A stretch of 64,000 bases of DNA from Candidatus Bathyarchaeota archaeon (lineage in GTDB: Archaea; Thermoproteota; Bathyarchaeia; 40CM-2-53-6), in the NCBI GenBank assembly GCA_005888735.1, contig VBBN01000027.1, positions 99,845 to 163,844 on the forward strand. The letters are read 5' to 3'. Positions 12,270-43,121 of the stretch are shown here, piece after piece. Numbering within the stretch: the stretch's first letter is position 1; every line of letters begins with the position of its first letter. The position numbers were made by a program, and so were the translations under genes. The notes beneath the pieces were generated by a model. That model saw only the letters and a list, made by a program, of their open reading frames with translations, did no database searches and was not told the DNA's origin.

Positions 12270-12716
12270 ATGAAAAGAGTAGGAAAGGTGGGGAAGTCGA
12301 ACCAGACGAACCTCTTGAAGGCCAAGTCGGAGAGCACGGTCAGATTCTACGACGTCTTAAGCGTGATTTTCTTCATTCTCGCGGCGGTATCCCTAGGCAT
12401 GCTCTCGCTGTTCTTGATACCTGACTTTGCTGTCTTGGGGCTCGGGGCCATGGATATCGGCACGATTCTTAACGCTGTGAGCCGCATGATATCGCTACGG
12501 AGTCTTGAAGACTTGGAGGAGCGGAAGAGAAAGACGAAGAACACAATCAAGTTCTTCCACGTGGTGAGCTACGCGTGTTTTGCAGTTGCCGCCGTACTAT
12601 TCGCCATAGCCCTGAACCTCTTCGATACGGACTTCGGGGTCATGGGACTGGAACTTTCCGGCTGCGGGACAATTCTCCGAGCTGTATCCCGAAGCATATA
12701 CTTGGAGAGTGGCTGA
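12270..12716 (+). CDS. Hypothetical membrane protein with internal duplication
   Basis: Two homologous halves: FLIPDFAVLGLGAMDIGTILNAVSRMISLRSLE and LFDTDFGVMGLELSGCGTILRAVSRSIYLESG. Confidence 0.45.
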   Translation: MKRVGKVGKSNQTNLLKAKSESTVRFYDVLSVIFFILAAVSLGMLSLFLIPDFAVLGLGAMDIGTILNAVSRMISLRSLEDLEERKRKTKNTIKFFHVVSYACFAVAAVLFAIALNLFDTDFGVMGLELSGCGTILRAVSRSIYLESG

Positions 12717-13380
12717 TTGCTTGGAGCTATGGAGACTAAACAACCTCTTCAAAATATTCCTCCTTTTCTTCGTCGTCGCGTACTTCGCCTCCGTCTTTCT
12801 GCTTAGGCAAGTAGCTCTCTCCCAGTATCTCCTCGTCATCCTCCTCCTAGGAATAGGCGTTTACATTGTGCTCATAGTTGCTCCTCTGCTCAAGAGGAAG
12901 AGTTCTGCAGCTCCGGAGGCGGGCGAAAAGGGAGGCGTCTCCAAAAAGACCGTCTTAGGAATTGTTGTGATAATTCTACTATTCGCAGGGGTCTTCTTCG
13001 TAGTTCGGAACCTCACATCTCCCACGCCAGGGTATCAGCTAGTCAGCGTCCAGTTCTTGATGGTGCCTAACGGCACAGCCTTCGTGATGCGCCCCTTCAT
13101 TCCCAACAATGAGTGCGCCTGGTTGGAGAGCATGAACATCACTACTAGGCAGAAAGCGACCGGCTTGGGGCTTCCAGACTGTGATTATGCCTGGCCGCAC
13201 GTCAACCTGAGCCAGGCAACCCTGTTCTTGGAGTTTGAAAACTTCACCGAGTTCGCCTACAACCTCAACGCTACCGGTCTCGTCCATGGTTCCAAAGGAA
13301 CAGCGATTCTCTGCTTCACAATACCTACTCAGAGCTTTCAATGCTGGGTCCCACCGGCAAGAGTCACTCATCTCCGGTAA
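12709..13380 (+). CDS. Hypothetical membrane/secreted protein
   Basis: Three N-terminal TM helices then a Cys-containing, N-glycosylation-sequon-rich extracytoplasmic domain. Overlaps the previous ORF by 8 nt. Confidence 0.45.
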   Translation: MADCLELWRLNNLFKIFLLFFVVAYFASVFLLRQVALSQYLLVILLLGIGVYIVLIVAPLLKRKSSAAPEAGEKGGVSKKTVLGIVVIILLFAGVFFVVRNLTSPTPGYQLVSVQFLMVPNGTAFVMRPFIPNNECAWLESMNITTRQKATGLGLPDCDYAWPHVNLSQATLFLEFENFTEFAYNLNATGLVHGSKGTAILCFTIPTQSFQCWVPPARVTHLR

Positions 13381-13596: not shown

Positions 13597-15498
13597 GTGC
13601 AAATCGATTCAAAACCGAAACTCACTGTTGCATTCATGTTCTTAATCGCCCTAGGCGGACTTAGTCTTGCACATCCTGCAGGTCAGACCATCCTAAGCGG
13701 AAGCCCCGAATCTGGTCTCTTCAAAGCTGCTCCCACTGGATCATCCTGGAATACTGCCGTTACGTGCCAGCCAGTCATCGCCACCGTTAGGGATATTCTG
13801 GGAAGCCAGCTGAATAGCAACGGCGGGGCAACTTTCTCCGGAGGCTACGGGGTGTCAATTCCAGATAAGCGGTCGATAAACCCACCATGCAACGTAAACG
13901 CGAAACAAATGCTCGTAGAAATTCACAACGTAGTCCTGATAGACTTCAGTGCTGCAGACGAGTGCGGCGACCCAGGCTACAGTCCCCCAATTCCAAGCGC
14001 TTACTGTGATTCCACCGGGAACATCGAGGACCAGAACGACCACACCTTCGGCAGCAATTACAACATGGTAAGAATGCACACCGAGAACGACATGGACTGG
14101 AAGTACCATAGTATCGCTTATCCTGACGCGCCGATGGGTGTGCCGATAGATGTCCAGGGCTTCGTCTACTGGGACCCGAGCCACGTGGCAGAGGCTTGGC
14201 ATTCCTACTCCGGATGGGAACTCCACCCGCTCACCGCGTGGAGACTCTCCGGACAAGGCCAGCCTCTCACCGCCAGTTTCCTCTCCAGTCCAAGCAGCCC
14301 TGTCGTAAACACAAACGTCTACTTCGCGGCTACCCCCATGGGCGGAAGCTCCCCCTACATGTACGCGTGGACCTTCGGAGACGGCTCGACGGGGACCGGG
14401 GCAGCCCCAAGCCACGCGTACACAACCTCTGGCGTTTACACGGTCAGCTTAACAGTCACAGACTCGGCGGGCGGTTCGTCACAAGTCTCCAACGTTGTCT
14501 CGGTTTCGTCTCCAGCTCCGCTTGTCGCAAGCTACCAGTACCTACCATCAACACCGTTAGCAGCGGAAACGGTAACCCTAACAGCCTCAGCCACCGGCGG
14601 ACAACCAGGCTACGGTTACGCTTGGCAGTTCGGCGATGGAGCGAGCGCAAGCGGGAACCCGATCAGCCACTTATACACAACGCCCGGAAGCTATGTAGTA
14701 ATCCTAACCGCAACCGATTCGGTCGGGCACAAGGCCACCTTCTCTGAAACCATCAGCGTTCTTTCTTCTTCGCCTCCACCCCTCAACACGTATTTTGTAT
14801 TTGCCAACCCGTCAGGGGTTGATCTCTCAAACCAACTCTCCTGGCAGGTCATGGACGGAGACGTTCAAGTCACCAGCAGCAGCCCAGCCCTTCTAGACAC
14901 GACTAAAGTCTATTTTCTCAACGTCTTCTACCAGGGTCGTCTTGTGGAGAGTCGAACATTCAGCCCCCAGCCCTCGATATTGATAACAGTCTACATGTAT
15001 CCCCACCAGTCGGCTACGAACGGCTACATCGCGTTCAACTCAACAATCAACACCTTCGCCATAACAGAACAATCCGGCTCGCGCCTTCGGTTCACAGCCC
15101 TCTCCGCGTATGGAACAGGCTCCTCTGATCACATGATCATAGTCAAGGTTCCCAAGTCGCCAGCGCTAGTGCAAAGAACCGGGTCCGATTATCCATTCTC
15201 CTTCGACCAGTCCAACAACGTTGTCATCATAGAAAGCCCCACGCTGTCAGATTGGAATCTCATCTTCAACACTCCCTTACAACCCCCGTCTCCTCCGACA
15301 TCACAGCCACCGACCAGCCAACCACAATCTCACTGCCAGATATGCCTGAACACCCGAGGCCCTGTTTACTTCCTGTCGTTGCTCGCTTTAGGAGCAATAG
15401 TGGGGCTCGTCCTCACGTTACTGGTTCTAACTGCAGGGGCAAGAAGGCGTCTTCGAAAGACCCGCCGGACATATCACAAAAGAGTGCTCTTGGAATAG
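13597..15498 (+). CDS. Cell-surface protein with two PKD domains and C-terminal TM anchor
   Basis: Signal peptide MQIDSKPKLTVAFMFLIALGGLSLAHPAG. PKD signatures YAWTFGDGSTGTG...YTVSLTVTDSAGG and YAWQFGDGASASG...YVVILTATDSVGH. A PPSPPTSQPPTSQP linker leads to a TM helix and an RRRLRKTRR tail. Confidence 0.8.
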   Translation: MQIDSKPKLTVAFMFLIALGGLSLAHPAGQTILSGSPESGLFKAAPTGSSWNTAVTCQPVIATVRDILGSQLNSNGGATFSGGYGVSIPDKRSINPPCNVNAKQMLVEIHNVVLIDFSAADECGDPGYSPPIPSAYCDSTGNIEDQNDHTFGSNYNMVRMHTENDMDWKYHSIAYPDAPMGVPIDVQGFVYWDPSHVAEAWHSYSGWELHPLTAWRLSGQGQPLTASFLSSPSSPVVNTNVYFAATPMGGSSPYMYAWTFGDGSTGTGAAPSHAYTTSGVYTVSLTVTDSAGGSSQVSNVVSVSSPAPLVASYQYLPSTPLAAETVTLTASATGGQPGYGYAWQFGDGASASGNPISHLYTTPGSYVVILTATDSVGHKATFSETISVLSSSPPPLNTYFVFANPSGVDLSNQLSWQVMDGDVQVTSSSPALLDTTKVYFLNVFYQGRLVESRTFSPQPSILITVYMYPHQSATNGYIAFNSTINTFAITEQSGSRLRFTALSAYGTGSSDHMIIVKVPKSPALVQRTGSDYPFSFDQSNNVVIIESPTLSDWNLIFNTPLQPPSPPTSQPPTSQPQSHCQICLNTRGPVYFLSLLALGAIVGLVLTLLVLTAGARRRLRKTRRTYHKRVLLE

Positions 15499-15828: not shown

Positions 15829-18705
15829 ATGGCCGTTAGAAGTCGTGCGAGGCTGGACAAGAAGAAGATATCGAGAGATGTAGTCGCAATCATCCTCCTG
15901 CTCGCCACTACTACCCCGGCTGCGTTCCACGCAGTCCGGGCTCAAGGACTTGCAGCCAGCATCACATACACACCAACATCACCCGCAAGAACGGAGACCG
16001 TTACCTTTACCGGATCTGCCACGGGAGGCGTACCACCATATACATTCTCATGGACCCTCGGCGACGCCTCCACCGTAACCGGCTCCACCGTCTCCCACAC
16101 CTATGCCTCGAGCGGCGCTTACACTGTCAACTTGACAGTTACCGATTCCAACCTGCAACAAGCCTTCCAGGCACAGAAGGTCATCGTCACCAACTATCAT
16201 GGGTTCAGCTTCGGCATAGCCAGCGACATCGGCAACCTCAACGTCGGCTACAGCAACAATGCCCTCTACGCATCTCGGCAGAGCCTCCTACGCCTCGGCA
16301 ACAGCACGGGCTTGAGCTTCTTCATTGCCAATGGCTGGTTCGCGGATGGGTTCTATTACCGGAATGAGGCCGCGTGGTGCAGCGAGTTCAAAGCCCACTA
16401 CTCTAACATAGTCCTCGTCGCAGGTGAGACCGATACCGGCTGGACGAGTGTCCCCTATAGCGACATCATCTACGACAGCAACACTAATGGCGTATACGAC
16501 AACTCCGGCTCAGGACCTGACAGTATTTTGTTCAACGGTTGGGGGGGAGGCAGCCGTCTGCCCGGCCCAGTCAACGGGAGTCCAATAGCGTCAGATAACA
16601 GGATCCGGTACTGGGACGCCAACCATGACAATCAATGGAACCCCGGCGAGGCTATCGTCGATGACGATGCTGGTGTTAGCTTTATGCGTGCCTACTATCC
16701 TGTAATGGTTGGGCCGATACCTCCCACTGGCACTCCGCTCTCGTCTGACCCCAAGCTGAAGTATTTCCAGCGGGACAGCAACCGGTTCTATGTTCGTCCC
16801 CAGACCAACGGCGACTTTGAACAATACGTCATCAACTGCGGCTTCCCGTCGAGCCTCGGAACATGGCACGGCAGCGGCATCAACTGCGGCAACGCCCTCC
16901 CCGGCCAGCCCGGCTACACTTTCCCCACGTGCTACGGTCGCGAATACTACTTCGACATAGGATATCCGACACCGGAGTTGCGTATCGTGGCGATTAGCCC
17001 CACGGTACAGAATATCACCGGCCGCATGACCGTATTCGGCACCGACACTTGGCTCTACCAGAAGAACGATGCGCACTACAACTGGGTCAACCAGACAATA
17101 CAGGCAGCCCGGGCGGCCGGGATCCCCCAAACCATGGTGGTCAGTTTTGACCAGTGCATGGGCACCACCGTTGAAGAGTGTGGCCAAAGCTTCCATCACC
17201 AGAGCGCCTACGACTCCACCGGGACCCAGATCGAAGGGGATCTATGGTCATTACTACTTGACAGTCTTGGCCCACAAGGCGCTAGGATAACCTACTTGGT
17301 CCAAGGAGAGGACAAGGGATACAGCAGGTTCTACCCGTTGGCAACCCATCCTGCCCCCCCTTTTACGAGTGACGGACTAGGCTGCCTTTGGGACAGTGCC
17401 ACCGGCAATCATGGCTTCCCGTTGATAAAATACTCCTATGACACCCCCGCAGATCTCTACCCTGTATACAACCCAGCCTGTTTCGCCAACCCGCAGACCC
17501 CTGGGCAGCCGTACACTCCTTGGCCCGGCCTCGCCGGCCAAGGGGCATCGCTAATCATCTCCGCGGCTTTCGGCGCTGGCCTATACAACACACTCTACCC
17601 GGGAGAAATCCTAGTCAAAGACGTGAAGGGCACTGGGTTCTATGAACCGGGCTACGCCTACATTGGAGGCATCCAGCCCGTCCCGGGAACTATGCTCACG
17701 GGCAACCAGGCCACTAACAGCCACGTCGGCTTCATAGACACGAACGGCAATGGCCAATGGGACTTGGGCGAGACACTCTTTCGAGATTCGGACAACACCG
17801 ACGGCTGCACTGGTGGAACCACCTGTAACGGGAAATACGACCCCGGCGAGACCGTATACTCTGGGCCGGTTCCTAGCACTCAACAGCCCGCAGCTTTCAA
17901 CGACACAGATGTGAAGCTAATCGACACCAATGGGAACGGTAAATGGGACAGGCTCGGCGGAGCACCCCACAACGTCCTCGAAACACCCTACATAGCCACT
18001 TCAATGGGTGCAAATACACCATGCAACAATCTCGCCTACTCGACCACATGCCCCGGGCACGGCTGGGTCACTTTTGCCTTCAACCCGGCTGGCAACCAGA
18101 CGAACATAGACACGAACTTCTGCATTGACGGAGAACGGCCAACGCCTAACTATGCGTCCTGCATCAGCCCCCACGTCTACAAGGACAAGTATGTCACGGT
18201 CACATCAACTCTGCCCGTCCAGAAAGGCTTCTCCGTCACAGGCTCATTCTACGGCGTCTCAGCGACGATGGCCGCCTACCTCGGCTCCGATCCAGCCATC
18301 ATGCCGACCGCATGGCTCACCGCGGCAAACACCAGTAGCGCTCAACCCTTCGTCGTCCATACCGCTACCTATCTGAACGTCACTCAGACAAGCCAGGGCT
18401 TCAAGTTCGTCTACCAGATCAACACCACAACCTCGACGAACCGCGCCCAGCCCTGGCTCGCCTTCGCCTGCAAGTATACACCCGGCGTGTCAAACAACCC
18501 TTGCGGCTTCCAGAGGACACTAGACATAAACCATGACGGTATGGTGAACATATCCGATATCGCGGCATGCGCTCTCGCCTGGGAGTCTCACCCTGGGGAT
18601 TCGAAGTGGAACGTAAACTGTGATATCAACAACGATGGTGCAGTGAACATATTCGATATCGCAAACATGGCATTATATTTCGACAGCCCAGTGTTCACAG
18701 TATAA
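15829..18705 (+). CDS. Large secreted protein: PKD domain, Ca-binding-like repeat region and C-terminal type-I dockerin
   Basis: Signal peptide. PKD signature FSWTLGDASTVTG...YTVNLTVTDSN. Several DTNGNGQWDLGE / DTNGNGKWD / DANHDNQWNPGE motifs. The C-terminal DINHDGMVNISDIAACALAW...CDINNDGAVNIFDIANMALYF is a canonical duplicated dockerin Ca-binding segment. Confidence 0.8.
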   Translation: MAVRSRARLDKKKISRDVVAIILLLATTTPAAFHAVRAQGLAASITYTPTSPARTETVTFTGSATGGVPPYTFSWTLGDASTVTGSTVSHTYASSGAYTVNLTVTDSNLQQAFQAQKVIVTNYHGFSFGIASDIGNLNVGYSNNALYASRQSLLRLGNSTGLSFFIANGWFADGFYYRNEAAWCSEFKAHYSNIVLVAGETDTGWTSVPYSDIIYDSNTNGVYDNSGSGPDSILFNGWGGGSRLPGPVNGSPIASDNRIRYWDANHDNQWNPGEAIVDDDAGVSFMRAYYPVMVGPIPPTGTPLSSDPKLKYFQRDSNRFYVRPQTNGDFEQYVINCGFPSSLGTWHGSGINCGNALPGQPGYTFPTCYGREYYFDIGYPTPELRIVAISPTVQNITGRMTVFGTDTWLYQKNDAHYNWVNQTIQAARAAGIPQTMVVSFDQCMGTTVEECGQSFHHQSAYDSTGTQIEGDLWSLLLDSLGPQGARITYLVQGEDKGYSRFYPLATHPAPPFTSDGLGCLWDSATGNHGFPLIKYSYDTPADLYPVYNPACFANPQTPGQPYTPWPGLAGQGASLIISAAFGAGLYNTLYPGEILVKDVKGTGFYEPGYAYIGGIQPVPGTMLTGNQATNSHVGFIDTNGNGQWDLGETLFRDSDNTDGCTGGTTCNGKYDPGETVYSGPVPSTQQPAAFNDTDVKLIDTNGNGKWDRLGGAPHNVLETPYIATSMGANTPCNNLAYSTTCPGHGWVTFAFNPAGNQTNIDTNFCIDGERPTPNYASCISPHVYKDKYVTVTSTLPVQKGFSVTGSFYGVSATMAAYLGSDPAIMPTAWLTAANTSSAQPFVVHTATYLNVTQTSQGFKFVYQINTTTSTNRAQPWLAFACKYTPGVSNNPCGFQRTLDINHDGMVNISDIAACALAWESHPGDSKWNVNCDINNDGAVNIFDIANMALYFDSPVFTV

Positions 18706-31054: not shown

Positions 31055-31257
31055 CCAGAACCGAGAATCCGAAGGGGCCTGACCATGTCGACGACCACAT
31101 TACAATTGGCCAAGTTGATTATTAGGAATATCGTAGCACCGGTCACAAAGTTCAGACCTTGCCAAGCTCGCGAGGGGATTATGCGCTTCGCCATAATGAT
31201 TATACGCGTCAAGAAAGCTCCTTTTGCCTGTGGCGCAAAATTCTGAAAACCACTAAT
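31055..31257. promoter_or_regulatory. Divergent intergenic/promoter region between oppB (minus) and the oppA-like SBP gene (plus)
   Basis: About 200 nt between divergent starts. Contains AT-rich TATA-like stretches (ttattaggaata; ataatgattatacg) at plausible distances from both starts. Assigned by position only. Confidence 0.3.
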
Positions 31258-33216
31258 TTGAAACACTTCCAAGCCATCGTTCTGTGCTTTCTGGCCCTAT
31301 CCCCCTTCCTCAGCTTCCTGATTCCCCCTGCTCAGGCAGCGGGCACGCTTAGTCCGAATCTCAAAATCACGCTACTTGTCCCAACGTCCAACAGCGCGCG
31401 AAGGGCCTGGGCAACAATAATCCAGAACAACCTCAACTTTCTCGGAATCGACACCGGGAGAGTAGAACTCCCATTCAGCCCCAACATATTCGACAGAGCA
31501 CTGACCCCTGGTGCAAGTGCCCTTGGCAAGACCTACGACCAAGGCGGATTCGACATCCTTTTCGTTGGATACAATCTTGGAATCGATGCCGACCCCTGGT
31601 CGCTCTACCACAGCTCACAATTCGCCCCAACAGGGCAAAACTACTACCTCTGGAACAACACTCAAAATGACCAGCAGACAACCCAGATCAAAGAAAACAT
31701 CAACAAGACCCAACGCCTCAACTTGGTGAAGCAATGGCAGGTCCTAGCCGCGGATGAACTACCCTCCATTCCGATATTGTACACCCGCGAGAATGTAGCG
31801 TTCGACGGGACAGCTTCCAATGCCCAGGCTATCTTCACAGCATACCATGCCCCCGCGTGGCCACCGATCGAACATCTCACGACTGCCCTAGACGCAAACT
31901 TGATCCTCGCTCAGACAGGTCAGGCACCCGGAGAGGGAATGATACCAGAACTCAGCACGTCATACTACGACACAACGGTCTTCAACGAAATATTCAGCTC
32001 GCTGGCAATCAGAAACGACACAACATTCAAGACAATGATTCCGCAGCTCGCCTCGGGAACAGTCGCAAGCCCTGGTTGGTCAGTCGCATCCGACTCCAAG
32101 ACTTGGACCGTTACGCTTCGGCCAGGCATAAAGTGGCATGATGGCATAGATTTCAACGCGACCGACGTAAAATTCACGTTTGACGCAATCCAAGACGACC
32201 TACTAGCGGCGCCCACCGAAGCCTTCGTCAAAGGACTCGTCGGAGGGAAGAGTAACGTCACGATCGTCGACCGGATGACAGTGAAGTTTGACCTCCCGAA
32301 GCCCTACGCATACTTTGTCGAGAACATTCTCACATACCCGATTCTTCCGCAGCACATTCTCAAGAGCATCGCGCTGGACCAGTGGCAGAAGAGCCAATTC
32401 AACAGGCCGGACACGGGAACCGTAACGTCTCCTCCACCCACGGGCACGGGACCCTACAAATGGGTCGACTGGACCGCTACCACAAAGACAGTCCACCTGA
32501 CCAGGAATGATGCCTACTTCGACTTCCCGGACAAAGGCAGAGCCGCACTCCTACTCAAGGGACAGTTCACAGTCAAAGAATACTACGTGAAGAATATCGT
32601 GGACACAGATGTAGCTATCACCGCGCTCAAGAATCACGAAGTCAATGTCCTAGACAGCCAATACCATATTGAAATCCAGCCCAGCTTCCTCATCGAGTGG
32701 GGCGCGAGCAAGATCGCGAGCTATGACGCATTCGGCGTCCAGGAAATGGGCGTCAACATGAAACATCCACTGATAGGAACCGGAGTAGACACACCTCTGG
32801 GTAAGTCAGACCCGACAAAGGCCGCACTCGCCGCCAAGTATCTCCGCCAAGCGATCAGCGAGGCGGTCCCACGAGAGCAAATTGTGGGTCAGTTGCTCAA
32901 CGGCTATGGAGTCTCCGCGATAACAACGCCAGTGGTCGGCAACTACAAGACCGGCATCCCAGTTACCGAAGGCTTCAACGCGGCACTGAAGCCCTACGAC
33001 TTCAACCTAACCCGGGCATCGGAGCTTATCAAAGCTGCTGGCTACGTCCCGGCCCCACCAGCGCCAGGCTTCTTTGAAGCCTACGGACTCTACCTAACCA
33101 TCGCGCTCGTCGCTGTCATTGTCGCGCTCGCTGGCATCTACGTTTGGAGGACCAGGCGCAAGCCTATGGCTGCTTCGACAACAATGCCTCAACCATCGAT
33201 GCCAACAAGTCCCTAG
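31159..33216 (+). CDS. oppA: ABC transporter substrate-binding protein, family 5 (oligopeptide/nickel, OppA-like) with C-terminal TM anchor
   Basis: SBP_bac_5-like organisation. Signal peptide LKHFQAIVLCFLALSPFLSFLIPPAQAAG. The probable real start is TTG 31258, in frame with the listed ORF. The C-terminus has a TM helix LYLTIALVAVIVALAGIYVW plus an RTRRK tail, an archaeal-type anchor. It is divergent from oppBCDF. Confidence 0.8.
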   Translation: MPSSRGDYALRHNDYTRQESSFCLWRKILKTTNLKHFQAIVLCFLALSPFLSFLIPPAQAAGTLSPNLKITLLVPTSNSARRAWATIIQNNLNFLGIDTGRVELPFSPNIFDRALTPGASALGKTYDQGGFDILFVGYNLGIDADPWSLYHSSQFAPTGQNYYLWNNTQNDQQTTQIKENINKTQRLNLVKQWQVLAADELPSIPILYTRENVAFDGTASNAQAIFTAYHAPAWPPIEHLTTALDANLILAQTGQAPGEGMIPELSTSYYDTTVFNEIFSSLAIRNDTTFKTMIPQLASGTVASPGWSVASDSKTWTVTLRPGIKWHDGIDFNATDVKFTFDAIQDDLLAAPTEAFVKGLVGGKSNVTIVDRMTVKFDLPKPYAYFVENILTYPILPQHILKSIALDQWQKSQFNRPDTGTVTSPPPTGTGPYKWVDWTATTKTVHLTRNDAYFDFPDKGRAALLLKGQFTVKEYYVKNIVDTDVAITALKNHEVNVLDSQYHIEIQPSFLIEWGASKIASYDAFGVQEMGVNMKHPLIGTGVDTPLGKSDPTKAALAAKYLRQAISEAVPREQIVGQLLNGYGVSAITTPVVGNYKTGIPVTEGFNAALKPYDFNLTRASELIKAAGYVPAPPAPGFFEAYGLYLTIALVAVIVALAGIYVWRTRRKPMAASTTMPQPSMPTSP

Positions 33217-38520: not shown

Positions 38521-40584
38521 CTAGTGTCTCGACAGAATAGTTACTGTGACTGCAGTCGTGTGAGTCAGCGACCCACTAGTCGCAGTTATGGTGATTGTGT
38601 AGGTCCCCGTTTGCGTCCCGCCGTTCGTGGAAACCGTCAATATGGCTGTATCGCTTCCGCCTGGAGATAGGTTCAGACTTGTCGGTGTCAGTGTTACTCC
38701 TGGGCCTTTCTTGACACTGGGCGTGATGGTTGCGGAGAGGGTTACGGTTCCCGTGAAGCCGTTTAGGCTGGTGAGTGTTACCGTGGAGCTGGCTGACTGG
38801 CCTCTGATGATGGTTAAAGAAGACGGGCTGGTTCGGCTGGCGAAGTCTGGTGGCGGGGCAGTCGATGTGAAGTTAGCCTCGAGGACGTTCTCTGGGTCAA
38901 CGCCCCCTGGAGCATTCGGATTTGTGACGGTGACGCATATGTTGTCGTTGCTCGTTCCGCTGCAGCCAACAGGGAACAAAATGTAGGTTCCCTGAGTGGT
39001 GCCCACGATGTTGTAGGTGATGCTAAAGAAGCGTCCAGTAGTCGGTGCGGTAGTGATGCTGCCTTGGGACACAGCCGCCACTCTAACAAGACCGCTGGTT
39101 GAGTTGACAGAGTTGCGGACTACGAAGACGTTTTGAAGAACAGTTCCGTTGAGACTATCACTGACTGGTCGAAGTACACTAGGGTCTGTCAGTACTAGGA
39201 TGTCGAAGCCGTTGAGAGCAGGTGAATTCTGAACGTTCACAGCGACACTCAACTGTCCCCCAACAGTTCCCTGGGCCATCAGTGGAGTCGAAGGACACGA
39301 GGTGGACGACGCGGGAGCGATGCACACCGTACCAGGTGTGAGTGCGGCCACTATTGTAAAGGACGATGTTGTCGAGTGAGATAGGTTACCGTTTGTCCCG
39401 GTAACGTTGACGACGAAGGTTGTGGTTGGGCTTCCAGTAGTGGTGGAGAAGGTGAGGGTAGACGTCGCAGATCCCCCTGATGGGAGAGTGACGTTTCTAG
39501 GGCTCAAACTCCAGGTTGGACAGCTGGGGCATAGAGGAGGTGCGGAACTTGAGAGATTGACCGTGCCGCTGAACCCGTTAATGCTGGTGACCACGATCAT
39601 GGAGGTCGCAGTGGAGCCTTGCTGCACGTTTTGGGAAGCCGGGTTGGCAGACATGGAAAAGTCCGGTGTTGGAGCCTGCACGACTTTGAACGAAACTGTC
39701 ACCGAATGGGACAGGCTACCGCTGGTTCCTGTGACTGTGACGTTGAAGATCATGGCCGGTGTGTTAGAGGATGTTGTGAAAGTCAGCGTGGCCTGGGCTG
39801 TCCCGCCCGAGGCAACGAACACGCTGCTTGGGCTGATGCTCCAAGACGGGCATCCTATAGCGAGACACATAGCAGGGAGCGAGAAGTTGACTGTGCCCGA
39901 GAAACCGTTCAGGCTGGCGACGGTTATGGCTGACTTTGCGGAGGAGCCTTGTTGGACCGTTTGAGACAGCGGGTTGGCGGCAATGGTGAAGTCGGGGGTT
40001 GCCGTCCCGCCAAATGTTGCGGTCTGAACCATCTCGGGGTCAACCGTGTTTCCGTTGACAACTGTCACACACGTACTGGGAACGCTTGTGCCCGAACAGC
40101 CTGTCTGAAAGACAATCGCTGTTCCCTTGGTTGAGGATAATACCTTGTAGAGGATGTTGAACAGGTTTCCTGTGACAGGACCTGCTATAATATAGCCTTC
40201 AGCGACTATCGCGAGACGCGCGATTCCTGTTGACGAGTCCGTAGATTGCGCGACTATAAGGCGGGGATCGTGGACTACGCTGTTAGCTACGGTTATGTTC
40301 AAGGGTTGCAGAACAGACGGGTCAACTTGGACTGCAATGTCGAAGCCGTTCAGGCTGTCACTGCCTTGAATGTTGACTGCGAGAGTAATGCTGGAACCTA
40401 CCGGCGCGGACAGGGAAGGGGGTGATGAGGGACAAGATGAAGGGTTCACTGAGCTGTTTGCGATGCAGACGAGGCCTGTGGCAGCGCTAACTTGCGGAAC
40501 GGTTACCAAGAGTCCTAGCAATGTTAGAGTTAGAAGAGAGCTGAGCGAAAGAATCATTTTCAGTTCTTTCAAGAATTTCCGCAA
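38521..40584 (-). CDS. Ser/Thr-rich surface protein with two cohesin domains and three Ig-like repeats
   Basis: Signal peptide. Cohesin-like segments ITLAVNIQGSDSLNGFDIAVQVDPSVLQPL (about 40497..40060) and LSVAVNVQNSPALNGFDILVLTDPSVLRPV (about 39342..38904). In between are three ~95-aa repeats (PDF[TS]..ANP.SQ.VQQGS...SLNGFSGTV). All plus-strand ORFs in this span are antisense artefacts. Confidence 0.7.
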   Translation of the reverse strand: MRKFLKELKMILSLSSLLTLTLLGLLVTVPQVSAATGLVCIANSSVNPSSCPSSPPSLSAPVGSSITLAVNIQGSDSLNGFDIAVQVDPSVLQPLNITVANSVVHDPRLIVAQSTDSSTGIARLAIVAEGYIIAGPVTGNLFNILYKVLSSTKGTAIVFQTGCSGTSVPSTCVTVVNGNTVDPEMVQTATFGGTATPDFTIAANPLSQTVQQGSSAKSAITVASLNGFSGTVNFSLPAMCLAIGCPSWSISPSSVFVASGGTAQATLTFTTSSNTPAMIFNVTVTGTSGSLSHSVTVSFKVVQAPTPDFSMSANPASQNVQQGSTATSMIVVTSINGFSGTVNLSSSAPPLCPSCPTWSLSPRNVTLPSGGSATSTLTFSTTTGSPTTTFVVNVTGTNGNLSHSTTSSFTIVAALTPGTVCIAPASSTSCPSTPLMAQGTVGGQLSVAVNVQNSPALNGFDILVLTDPSVLRPVSDSLNGTVLQNVFVVRNSVNSTSGLVRVAAVSQGSITTAPTTGRFFSITYNIVGTTQGTYILFPVGCSGTSNDNICVTVTNPNAPGGVDPENVLEANFTSTAPPPDFASRTSPSSLTIIRGQSASSTVTLTSLNGFTGTVTLSATITPSVKKGPGVTLTPTSLNLSPGGSDTAILTVSTNGGTQTGTYTITITATSGSLTHTTAVTVTILSRH

Positions 40585-41951: not shown

Positions 41952-43121
41952 TTATTCGCTTATAGTTCTGTCGTCACCGCTACCAAGCTTTCTTCTCCGT
42001 GCGACTGTGATAATAGCTGCGAGCCCGACGGCTGCCCAGGCCGCGATTGTTGCGTAAATGAAGAATGAGGCACTCGGCTGGCTTGAGGTAGGCTGGATTG
42101 TGGTCTCGTAGGACACTCGGACCGTAGTGTTGGAGTTTACGACAAGTGAGCCTCCAGATGGGTTCGACTTGTATCCGGGAGGGTTTTGCACGGTAAACAG
42201 ATGCGTGCCCTTTGACACTTCAAACGTTATCGACTTTTCGGTTGACTCCTGACTGATTCCATCTAGGATCACCGACCAAGTTGTGCCGGGCGCAAGTCCT
42301 GATTTTGAAAAGCTGACGGAGTACTCTAGTGGCGCGAATCCTACGAGTTGGGAGACGGGGTTTCCGCTTACTTGCAGGATGGCTGATGCAGGGATGCTGG
42401 TGTAGCCGTTGATGGGTGCGACCGTGAAAGCGTATGTTCCGTTGGGCTCTGAGAAGAGGACACTCTCGGATGTGGAGGAGAGAGTTGTATGGTTGAGTGT
42501 GACGGACCATGAAGTTCCGGGTCTTAGGCCGGTTTCTGTGAGTCTGACCGGGTAGGTACTCGGGCGTGAGACTTGAATGAGTGTCGCATTGCCGTCATTG
42601 TAGTAGTTCTGGTATAAGCCACTATTTGGGAGCGTGTAGCTTGAAACCGAGACGGTCGCGCTGTTCTGCGCGAAAGTTGAACGAACCTCTCGCTCGGCGA
42701 TCTCCCAGCCGTCGATCACATGCTTGCAAAACGGAAAGGGATTGCATACGCTGGTTTCATGGTGCGCGGCACCTATGCTCCATTGCCCGAGGACAGGGTC
42801 CAATCCCGTGTCCCAGACTCGAATGTGAAAGCGGGGACCGTAGCAGGGCGGGATTTGGCCTCCGGTATCAGGTGTTTCAAGGGTGAAGTCGTACGTTTTC
42901 CCACTGAGCGTCTTTGGCTCCGAGCAGGGCGTCGGGTTCCATCCGTTAAAGTTCTGAAGAACCCACCAAGCTGGCGCGTACCCGGTGAAGATTAGGTTTA
43001 CAGGATCTAAGCCGTCGTCGGTTTGAGGGGGAATTGTCATGGTGGCGTCGGCCCCCCGAACAGCCAATAGAAACGAACTCTCGAGACAGAGAGCTATGAG
43101 AAGGCCTGCGGTCGTTCTCAA
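41952..43121 (-). CDS. Secreted surface protein with tandem beta-sandwich repeats and C-terminal TM anchor
   Basis: Signal peptide. A Cys-containing N-terminal domain. Two homologous ~60-aa repeats (TSWSVTLNHTTLSSTSESVLFSEPNGTYAFTVAPINGY / TTWSVILDGISQESTEKSITFEVSKGTHLFTVQNPPGY). A C-terminal TM helix and RRRK tail. Confidence 0.6.
   Translation of the reverse strand: MRTTAGLLIALCLESSFLLAVRGADATMTIPPQTDDGLDPVNLIFTGYAPAWWVLQNFNGWNPTPCSEPKTLSGKTYDFTLETPDTGGQIPPCYGPRFHIRVWDTGLDPVLGQWSIGAAHHETSVCNPFPFCKHVIDGWEIAEREVRSTFAQNSATVSVSSYTLPNSGLYQNYYNDGNATLIQVSRPSTYPVRLTETGLRPGTSWSVTLNHTTLSSTSESVLFSEPNGTYAFTVAPINGYTSIPASAILQVSGNPVSQLVGFAPLEYSVSFSKSGLAPGTTWSVILDGISQESTEKSITFEVSKGTHLFTVQNPPGYKSNPSGGSLVVNSNTTVRVSYETTIQPTSSQPSASFFIYATIAAWAAVGLAAIITVARRRKLGSGDDRTISE

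What the first reader, a model, noticed from the sequence alone, without database searches (positions are those of the whole stretch)
15829..18705. Canonical type-I dockerin on a PKD/Ca-repeat surface protein, with a two-cohesin partner 20 kb away
The last ~65 residues of the 958-aa protein (about 18510..18702) read DINHDGMVNISDIAACALAW...CDINNDGAVNIFDIANMALYF. This is the duplicated DxNxDGxVNxxD Ca-binding loop plus helix of a dockerin. The Ser/Thr-rich protein at 38521..40584 carries two cohesin-like modules (NGFDIAVQVDPSVLQPL and NGFDILVLTDPSVLRPV). Both proteins have signal peptides. Together with the TM-anchored PKD protein immediately upstream (13597..15498), this suggests a cohesin-dockerin surface assembly. 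Cohesin/dockerin modules occur sporadically in archaea, where no function is established. The partner specificity and cargo here would be new.
Basis: partly seen in the sequence, partly recalled or inferred. Interest (0 to 1): 0.6.

Follow-up and report, generated by a model that had tools for sequence, protein, structure and literature searches.

The report
Archaeal dockerin protein with cohesin partner
A soil-type Bathyarchaeota genome encodes a secreted protein ending in a true dockerin and, 20 kb away, a secreted protein with two true cohesins; this is a non-cellulosomal "plug and socket" surface-attachment pair of a known kind, and its cargo turns out to be a catalytically dead phosphatase-like protein.

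Summary
ORF 15829..18705 (+, 958 aa) ends in a dockerin that passes Pfam's threshold and has two intact Ca-loop/helix repeats. ORF 38521..40584 (-, 687 aa) carries two cohesin modules. Each passes Pfam Cohesin's threshold when scanned alone. Module 1 was modelled (pLDDT 93.7), and its 50 best PDB matches are all cohesins.

- "Type I" is not supported. The nearest solved relatives of both modules are type II.
- The upstream TM-anchored PKD gene is absent from the two orthologous loci examined.

Two orthologues carry a C-terminal membrane helix where the dockerin sits, which argues that the dockerin is a surface-attachment device. Relatives show the same dockerin subfamily on diverse secreted proteins, and cohesins on TM-anchored, four-cohesin and cohesin-plus-dockerin proteins.

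That the two window proteins bind each other is inferred, not shown. No anchor was found on the cohesin protein. Verdict: a new member of a known kind (non-cellulosomal archaeal cohesin-dockerin), of moderate interest.

The parts
15829..18705 (+). Gene for the 958-aa secreted dockerin-bearing protein. Order of parts: signal peptide, PKD, degenerate phosphoesterase core with two repeat insertions, beta-sandwich, dockerin.
   Evidence: ORF. Identical to NCBI protein cluster P0121. Domains.
15829..15942 (+). Putative Sec signal peptide (aa 1-38: basic n-region, VVAIILLLATTT, AVRA|QG).
   Evidence: Read from the sequence. No predictor was run.
15961..16188 (+). PKD domain (aa ~45-120).
   Evidence: Pfam PKD_4 6.5e-14 and PKD 9.7e-09. 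ColH PKD matches in PDB.
16195..18168 (+). Purple-acid-phosphatase-like metallophosphoesterase fold with a degenerate active site (aa ~123-780).
16441..16803 (+). Insertion 1 (aa ~205-325), absent from active relatives. Carries the D-x-N-x-N-G-x-W-D-x-G-E type repeat.
   Evidence: Gap in the hhalign alignment. Repeat hits. No Pfam family. pLDDT 80-89.
17608..17958 (+). Insertion 2 (aa ~594-710) with DTNGNGQWDLGE and DTNGNGKWD loops.
   Evidence: Only sub-threshold EF-hand, FG-GAP and GEVED hits.
18181..18513 (+). Beta-sandwich domain directly before the dockerin (aa ~785-895). Possibly X-module-like, unresolved.
   Evidence: Eight strands in the model. Foldseek gives local hits to X-module-plus-dockerin chains, probability 0.8-0.93 but E 0.006-0.16. 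Its own profile A4 finds no X module.
18523..18687 (+). Dockerin: two 22-residue Ca-loop plus helix repeats (aa 899-920 and 932-953), joined by the linker HPGDSKWNVNC.
   Evidence: Pfam Dockerin_1 29.2 / 32.9 bits vs cut-off 22.9. PDB dockerin hits. Helices 908-916 and 941-949 at pLDDT 81-87. Coordinates.
38521..40584 (-). Gene for the 687-aa secreted two-cohesin, Ser/Thr-rich protein.
   Evidence: ORF. Cluster P0001 is 100% identical. 31% Ser+Thr and 12 N-x-S/T sequons.
39985..40482 (-). Cohesin module 1 (aa 35-200).
   Evidence: Pfam Cohesin 37.1 bits, E 4.4e-09. AF2 pLDDT 93.7. Top 50 Foldseek PDB hits are all cohesins.
39340..39996 (-). Two Ig-like spacer modules (aa ~197-415).
   Evidence: Repeated PDF...SLNGFSGTVN...GTSGSLSHS units. 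Shared with hundreds of other proteins.
38845..39339 (-). Cohesin module 2 (aa 416-580).
   Evidence: Pfam Cohesin 31.7 bits, E 2.1e-07. 45% identical to module 1.
38524..38853 (-). C-terminal Ig-like module ending ...TVTILSRH. No membrane helix.
   Evidence: The NCBIfam 'invert_tail' match is generic to the Ig-like repeats.

Best explanation
This is a non-cellulosomal cohesin-dockerin attachment system of a Bathyarchaeota archaeon.

The 958-aa protein is exported. Its C-terminal dockerin, with two intact Ca-binding loop-helix repeats, plugs in a Ca-dependent way into a cohesin module on a second exported protein. The only cohesins in the window are the two on the 687-aa Ser/Thr-rich Ig-repeat protein. 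That protein could therefore hold two dockerin-tagged proteins at the cell envelope.

The cargo is not an enzyme of the usual kind. It is a purple-acid-phosphatase-like fold that has lost four of its five metal-ligand motifs and gained two insertions of a putative Ca-binding repeat. It most likely acts as a binding or structural (adhesin-like) surface protein.

Shown: the identity of the modules, the fold and degenerate motifs of the cargo, and the replacement of the dockerin by a membrane helix in two orthologues.

Inferred: Ca-dependent binding, the pairing of these two particular proteins, localisation at the cell surface, and the non-catalytic role.
For: - Dockerin: Pfam above threshold. 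D/N at loop positions 1, 3, 5, 9 and 12 in both repeats. Two helices predicted at pLDDT 81-87.
- Cohesins: Pfam above threshold for both modules. The family profile hits only cohesins in PDB, best 5.4e-10. The model has pLDDT 93.7, and the top 50 Foldseek hits are all cohesins, including the Archaeoglobus fulgidus cohesin 2xdh.
- Attachment role: orthologues P0132 (64% identical) and P0133 (57%) end in a hydrophobic helix plus basic tail where P0121-P0131 have the dockerin.
- A wider system in relatives: the same dockerin subfamily (linker ...PGDP.WNP..D) closes active phosphoesterases, repeat proteins and a beta-propeller-like protein. The same cohesin subfamily occurs on TM-anchored proteins (P0052, P0075, P0077, P0087, P0298), on a four-cohesin protein (P0106) and on cohesin-plus-dockerin proteins (P0264, P0287).
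- Degenerate motifs: GDxG / GDLxY / GNHD / H / GHDH in the active relatives read ASDIG / GWFAD / GETD / SFDQC / GEDKG here. This is conserved in orthologues down to 56% identity.
- Both genes are conserved single-copy-looking genes. Cohesin-gene synteny is kept in L001.
Against: - No binding test or complex model could be run.
- The two genes are 20 kb apart, on opposite strands, among housekeeping genes.
- They are not linked in related loci. L001 has the cohesin gene but no dockerin. L002 and L003 have dockerin genes but no cohesin.
- Relatives encode several kinds of cohesin protein, so the true partner may lie outside the window.
- The 687-aa protein has no membrane helix or any recognised anchor. 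The NCBIfam 'anchoring domain' match is generic to its Ig-like repeats.
- Some orthologues have a decayed first Ca loop: DVFHLG, DIVHLG, DIYHFG.
- The acidic replacements in the cargo (GETD, GEDKG) leave open a different metal site and some residual chemistry.
Confidence: 0.55

Rival explanations
1. The modules are real, but these two proteins are not partners. The dockerin docks to another cohesin protein encoded outside the window, for example a TM-anchored one. The two-cohesin protein holds other dockerin-tagged proteins.
For: Relatives carry TM-anchored, four-cohesin and cohesin-plus-dockerin proteins, and many different dockerin cargos. There is no gene linkage in the window or in L001-L003. 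The window's cohesin protein has no anchor.
Against: These are the only cohesins and the only dockerin in 64 kb. Both modules lean to the same (type II-like) solved relatives. The rest of the genome could not be read, so there is no positive evidence for another partner.
Confidence: 0.3
2. The two-cohesin protein is not cell-bound. It is a free secreted cross-linker that joins dockerin-tagged proteins into an extracellular matrix or biofilm.
For: No TM helix, lipobox or known sorting signal is present, and the C-terminus is ...TVTILSRH. It has two cohesins separated by Ig-like spacers.
Against: Orthologues of the cargo swap the dockerin for a membrane helix, which points to the cell surface as the destination. 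Related cohesin proteins are TM-anchored. The conserved C-terminal Ig-like module could bind the envelope in a way that sequence does not reveal.
Confidence: 0.1
3. The dockerin-like tail works without any cohesin, for example as a Ca-dependent stabilising or glycan/S-layer-binding tail. The cohesin-like modules are then just Ig-like spacers.
For: For archaeal dockerin and cohesin domains, the literature held here says the implications of their presence in a genome are not clear (PMC9012536). Some orthologues have decayed Ca loops.
Against: Dockerin and cohesin subfamilies co-occur in this lineage. The most conserved cohesin segments are NGFD..V..DPSVL and TG.LF.I.Y; I expect these to be strands 3 and 8 of the dockerin-binding face, but strand identity was not mapped here. 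Archaeal pairs have been reported to bind specifically (PMC9012536, citing Haimovitz 2008).
Confidence: 0.05

Closest known systems
Non-cellulosomal cohesin and dockerin modules of archaea (Archaeoglobus fulgidus, ANME archaea; Peer et al. 2009 and Chadwick et al. 2022, PMC9012536)
   Same: The organism is an archaeon that is not evidently cellulolytic. Dockerin and cohesin sit on separate secreted proteins. The cargo is not a glycoside hydrolase. The A. fulgidus cohesin 2xdh is among the structural matches. As in ANME, relatives have multi-cohesin and cohesin-plus-dockerin proteins.
   Different: The lineage is Bathyarchaeota. The two searches of the held library (Bathyarchaeota with cohesin and dockerin; Bathyarchaeia with dockerin) found 6 and 4 papers, none with the topic in its title or abstract. 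The cohesins have an extra N-terminal strand and four conserved cysteines. The cargo is a dead phosphatase fold, not a solute-binding protein. In this window the solute-binding protein has a TM anchor instead.
Type II cohesin / X-dockerin anchoring pair of clostridial cellulosomes (e.g. CipA XDoc-SdbA, 2b59; A. cellulolyticus ScaA-ScaB, 4u3s)
   Same: These are the best sequence and structure matches for both modules. Their role is anchoring to the cell surface, which fits the dockerin-to-TM-helix swap in orthologues. A beta-sandwich precedes the dockerin.
   Different: No X module is detected by sequence, and the structural hits are weak. There is no SLH or sortase anchor on the cohesin protein, no CBM and no glycoside hydrolases. 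Sequence identity to the solved cohesins is only 12-18%.
Purple acid phosphatases and inactive metallophosphoesterase-fold scaffolds (e.g. Plasmodium GAP50, 3tgh)
   Different: The protein is 958 aa, with two roughly 120-aa repeat insertions, a PKD domain and a dockerin. Its loss of ligands is independent, because the closest active relatives are archaeal secreted enzymes.

Membership tests
Dockerin (Pfam PF00404) | Profile score above the curated threshold | tested here: met
   29.2 bits on the whole protein and 32.9 bits on the C-terminal 174 aa, against a cut-off of 22.9.
Dockerin (Pfam PF00404) | Two tandem ~22-residue segments, each a 12-residue Ca loop with D/N at positions 1, 3, 5, 9 and 12, followed by a helix | tested here: met
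   DINHDGMVNISD and DINNDGAVNIFD at aa 899 and 932. Helices 908-916 and 941-949 at pLDDT 81-87.
Dockerin (Pfam PF00404) | Ca2+-dependent binding to a cohesin | not testable with these tools
   No complex prediction or experiment was available.
   Best PDB matches are type II dockerins (2y3n_B 1.1e-4, 4wi0_B, 4u3s_B, 5k39_B), ahead of type I (4fl4_A 0.06, 2mte 0.11). X-dockerin chains are hit by the family profile and by Foldseek. The preceding domain alone finds no X module.
Cohesin (Pfam PF00963) | Profile score above the curated threshold | tested here: met
   Module 1 scores 37.1 bits and module 2 scores 31.7 bits, against a cut-off of 24.1, when scanned alone. The full-length scan missed both. 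21 of 34 family modules match.
Cohesin (Pfam PF00963) | Nine-stranded beta-sandwich (jelly-roll) fold | tested here: met
   AF2 pLDDT 93.7, all-beta. Foldseek top 50 are all cohesins, TM 0.6-0.7, probability 1.00.
Cohesin (Pfam PF00963) | Binds a dockerin through the 8-3-6-5 face | not testable with these tools
   Only indirect evidence: the most conserved segments are NGFD...DPSVL and TG.LF.I.Y. I expect these to be strands 3 and 8, but this was not mapped.
Cellulosome | Dockerin-borne glycoside hydrolases and a scaffoldin with a carbohydrate-binding module | tested here: not met
   The cargo is a degenerate phosphoesterase. No CBM or GH family is found on either protein.
Cellulosome | Anchoring of the cohesin protein by SLH domains or sortase | tested here: not met
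   No such domain. No C-terminal helix. The 'invert_tail' hit is generic.
Calcineurin-like / purple-acid-phosphatase metallophosphoesterases (PF00149) | Alpha/beta sandwich phosphoesterase fold and homology | tested here: met
Calcineurin-like / purple-acid-phosphatase metallophosphoesterases (PF00149) | Five metal-ligand motifs: GDxG, GDxxY, GNH[DE], H, GHxH | tested here: not met
   The motifs read ASDIG, GWFAD, GETD, SFDQC and GEDKG. Only the first Asp is kept. This is conserved across the clade. There is no Pfam Metallophos hit on the protein itself.

The most novel reading that the evidence does not exclude
Soil and sediment Bathyarchaeota may run a broad cohesin-dockerin 'display network' that has not been described. 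In it, one dockerin subfamily tags many secreted proteins: active phosphoesterases, beta-propellers and proteins built from a new Ca-loop repeat. Several scaffold types hold them at the envelope: TM-anchored, two-cohesin, four-cohesin and cohesin-plus-dockerin proteins. The window protein would be a phosphatase turned into a non-catalytic adhesin. The two-cohesin Ser/Thr-rich protein would be an envelope (S-layer-like) component attached in a way not yet known.
Probability: 0.3. Interest if true: 0.55.

Novelty: new member of a known kind. Interest (0 to 1): 0.4.

Why it matters
Bathyarchaeota are abundant, mostly uncultured archaea, and I know of no direct description of their cell envelope or of how they hold extracellular proteins. 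A verified cohesin-dockerin pair would give a concrete, testable handle on how their surface is organised. The test is simple: two small recombinant modules, Ca2+ and EDTA. The natural swap between a dockerin and a membrane helix in orthologues is a neat argument for what archaeal dockerins are for, a question the literature held here still treats as open (PMC9012536). The dead-phosphatase cargo and its uncatalogued repeat are side findings that may interest people who study pseudo-enzymes and adhesins. None of this overturns current knowledge.

Tried and rejected
- Full-length Pfam scan of the 687-aa protein gave no Cohesin hit. I did not take this as negative. Scanning the modules alone gave hits above threshold.
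- The NCBIfam 'invert_tail / lipo-invert C-terminal anchoring domain' hit (40.4 bits vs 37) looked like an anchor. An internal Ig-like module scores the same as the C-terminal one, about 25 bits each, so I rejected it as specific evidence. No paper uses the term.
- X-module hypothesis. The family profile and Foldseek hit X-dockerin chains. A profile of the pre-dockerin domain alone finds nothing relevant. Left as inconclusive.
- The A2 profile against PDB found only dockerin-containing chains. The link to phosphatases needed the active relatives as a bridge.
With the single protein, the genome scan returned only three loci, matched through the Ig-like repeats. So I obtained no genome-wide census of cohesins and dockerins for this organism.
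- The assemblies GCA_030157145.1 and GCA_030157165.1 look like bulk metagenome assemblies (contig names numbered into the thousands), so co-occurrence by assembly was not used.
- Rfam and tRNA scans of the window found nothing.
- A cohesin-dockerin complex could not be modelled, because only two single-chain prediction jobs were available.
Full report
**1. The observation**

ORF 15829..18705 (+) encodes 958 aa. It ends with two 22-residue segments, DINHDGMVNISDIAACALAWES and DINNDGAVNIFDIANMALYFDS, joined by HPGDSKWNVNC.
- Pfam Dockerin_1 scores 29.2 bits on the whole protein and 32.9 bits on the last 174 aa. The curated cut-off is 22.9.
- A direct comparison with PDB sequences returns dockerins, best 2y3n_B at 1.1e-4.
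- A regular expression for the dockerin Ca loop, run over all six frames of the window, matches only these two sites.

ORF 38521..40584 lies on the minus strand and encodes 687 aa. They belong to two roughly 165-aa modules (aa 35-200 and 416-580) that are 45% identical, E 1e-41.

**2. Are the modules cohesins?**

The full-length Pfam scan found no Cohesin hit. Four further results show that this was a miss, not a true negative.
- Nine listed homologues carry a precomputed PF00963 hit: P0002, P0003, P0023, P0052, P0061, P0070, P0081, P0083 and P0084.
- A profile of 34 such modules (A1) hits 15 PDB sequences. All are cohesins, best 3l8q_A at 5.4e-10.
- An AlphaFold2 model of module 1 is confident (pLDDT 93.7, pTM 0.89) and all-beta. 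Its 50 best Foldseek matches in PDB are all cohesins, with probability 1.00 and TM 0.6-0.7. Type II cohesins come first, and the Archaeoglobus fulgidus cohesin 2xdh is at rank 21.
- Scanned on their own, both modules pass Pfam's threshold: 37.1 and 31.7 bits against 24.1. Of the 34 family modules, 21 match Cohesin.

Compared with bacterial cohesins, this subfamily has an extra N-terminal strand (GLVCIA...SCPS) and four nearly invariant cysteines.

**3. Organism and context**

The 958-aa protein is identical to an NCBI protein named 'PKD domain-containing protein [Candidatus Bathyarchaeota archaeon]'. Loci retrieved through the Ig-like repeats also come from Bathyarchaeota MAGs.

The window holds ordinary archaeal genes: Nre, an Lhr-type helicase, LonB, an oligopeptide ABC system, an M1 peptidase, an MFS transporter and a UbiE-type methyltransferase. 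It has no RNA genes.

HMMs built from the window's dockerin and cohesin families find no further copy in the window.

The cohesin gene sits in a conserved neighbourhood (methyltransferase, cohesin gene, MFS, M1 peptidase) that recurs around a 70%-identical orthologue in L001.

The dockerin gene's neighbours are not conserved. In L002 and L003 the orthologues lack the upstream TM-anchored PKD gene. I therefore do not count that gene as part of the system. It is simply another surface protein with the C-terminal helix-plus-basic-tail anchor. The oligopeptide-binding protein at 31159..33216 has the same kind of anchor.

**4. What the dockerin protein carries**

The PKD domain is real (aa ~45-120), but about 650 residues had no Pfam hit.

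An exhaustive HMMER search with aa 120-894 found a small family plus weaker hits of two kinds.
- The first kind are secreted Metallophos proteins.
- The family profile A2 aligns to these at E 1e-42 to 1e-82.
- Profile-profile comparison with 20 of them (A3) gives 100% probability, E 5.7e-76.
- A3 hits plant and mammalian purple acid phosphatases in PDB at 5e-14.

The motif table shows a graded loss of metal ligands.

| Group | Motifs I to V |
|---|---|
| Active-type relatives (P0177, P0179, P0190) | GDIG / GDLAY or GDLTY / GNHDTGE / HK.C / HDH.YQR |
| Intermediate clade (P0134-P0137, P0174) | Asp of motif I lost; T[HF]D for NHD; AD for H; SD[YF] for HDH |
| Window clade | ASDIG / GWFAD / GETD / SFDQC / GEDKG |

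The window clade's pattern is conserved in orthologues down to 56% identity. Four of the five motifs have therefore lost their canonical ligands. I read the protein as a pseudo-phosphoesterase under purifying selection for another role.

**5. The insertions**

hhalign shows two insertions that are absent from the active relatives, at aa ~205-325 and ~594-710.

They carry loops of the form D-x-N-x-N-G-x-[WYF]-D-x-G-E. These are the second kind of hit. The motif is counted 1-8 times per protein by a regular expression, and HMMER reports up to 11 matched stretches per protein. Seven of the nine such proteins checked (P0178, P0180-P0184, P0186) also end in a dockerin.

No Pfam family covers them. 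There are only sub-threshold EF-hand, FG-GAP and GEVED hits. Ca binding by these loops is a guess from their composition.

**6. What the dockerin is for**

Eleven orthologue clusters (P0121-P0131) keep the dockerin. P0132 and P0133 (64% and 57% identical over the body) instead end in a hydrophobic helix followed by a basic tail. This natural swap argues that the dockerin does the same job as a membrane anchor: it holds the protein at the cell surface.

The dockerin subfamily (linker ...PGDP.WNP..D) closes about 35 of the other retrieved proteins. These include active phosphoesterases (P0179, P0213), repeat proteins, and an apparently NHL/beta-propeller-like protein (my reading of the sequence, not scanned) next to the orthologue in L003. 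It also occurs in a named Bathyarchaeota MAG, L004.

The cohesin subfamily occurs on several architectures:
- proteins with C-terminal membrane helices (P0052, P0075, P0077, P0087, P0298);
- a four-cohesin protein (P0106);
- proteins with both a cohesin and a dockerin (P0264, P0287).

Together these describe a cohesin-dockerin network in this lineage, much like the one reported for ANME archaea (PMC9012536).

**7. What remains inferred**
- The pairing of the two window proteins is not shown. The genes are 20 kb apart, on opposite strands, and unlinked in related loci. Relatives have several cohesin proteins.
- The 687-aa protein has no recognisable anchor. The NCBIfam 'invert_tail' match is produced equally by an internal Ig-like module.
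- 'Type I' is not supported. Both modules are closest to type II structures. The family profile and Foldseek touch X-dockerin chains. The pre-dockerin beta-sandwich alone finds no X module.
- Some orthologues have a decayed first Ca loop.

**8. Comparison, novelty and score**

Non-cellulosomal cohesin and dockerin modules in archaea are known (Peer 2009; Bayer 1999; Chadwick 2022, as cited). Binding has been reported for archaeal pairs.

My two searches of the held library (Bathyarchaeota with cohesin and dockerin; Bathyarchaeia with dockerin) found 6 and 4 papers, none with the topic in its title or abstract.

This is therefore a new member of a known kind. Its points of moderate interest are a clear dockerin-to-TM swap, a dead-phosphatase cargo and an uncatalogued repeat. 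Interest 0.4.

Noticed in passing
window 16441-16803 and 17608-17958; proteins P0178, P0180-P0188: A repeat of roughly 50 aa, with the loop D-x-N-x-N-G-x-[WYF]-D-x-G-E followed by VYD.N.NG.YD and G..P..GT.L..DP..K[FY].D. It occurs once or twice in each insertion of the 958-aa protein. In other proteins a regular expression counts the loop 1-8 times and HMMER reports up to 11 matched stretches; seven of the nine checked end in the same dockerin subfamily. No Pfam family covers it.
   Followed up: partly
proteins P0132 and P0133 (orthologues of window 15829-18705): Two orthologues (64% and 57% identical) end in a hydrophobic helix plus Arg/Lys-rich tail in place of the dockerin.
   Followed up: partly
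proteins P0126, P0129, P0130 (orthologues): The first Ca loop of the dockerin has decayed (DVFHLGIVSIQD, DIVHLGVVNILD, DIYHFGVVNLFD), and Pfam no longer flags a dockerin. The rest of the tail is conserved.
   Followed up: no
window 38521-40584 (-): Method point. The full-length Pfam scan missed both cohesins, yet each module alone scores 32-37 bits against a cut-off of 24.1. Domain censuses of Ser/Thr-rich surface proteins like this one may under-count cohesins.
   Followed up: yes
window 38524-38853 (-) and internal modules 39340-39996: The NCBIfam NF058595 'lipo-invert putative C-terminal anchoring domain' passes its cut-off only by summing over repeated Ig-like modules. Internal and terminal modules each score about 25 bits.
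   Followed up: yes
L003 9144-10928 (-): A 594-aa protein, NHL/beta-propeller-like by my reading of the sequence (not scanned), with a dockerin of the same subfamily lies directly downstream of the orthologue P0124.
   Followed up: partly
proteins P0106, P0264, P0287, P0052, P0075, P0077, P0087, P0298: Relatives of the cohesin subfamily include a four-cohesin scaffoldin-like protein, two cohesin-plus-dockerin adaptor-like proteins and five proteins with C-terminal membrane helices.
   Followed up: partly
window 31159-33216 (+): The oligopeptide solute-binding protein (SBP_bac_5) has a C-terminal hydrophobic helix and basic tail. In ANME archaea such binding proteins often carry dockerins instead. 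The mechanical ORF start (TTG) probably lies upstream of the real start.
   Followed up: no
window 13597-14286 and 14752-15498 (+): The N-terminal 230 aa and the 250 aa after the PKD pair of the upstream TM-anchored protein match no Pfam family.
   Followed up: no
window 12709-13380 (+) and 41952-43121 (-): ORFs of 223 and 389 aa with no Pfam hit; the first also has no NCBIfam hit.
   Followed up: no
L001 12659-15247 (+): An 862-aa PKD/MG2 protein near the cohesin orthologue gives a weak match to the cohesin-module HMM (E 3.5e-06, partial).
   Followed up: no
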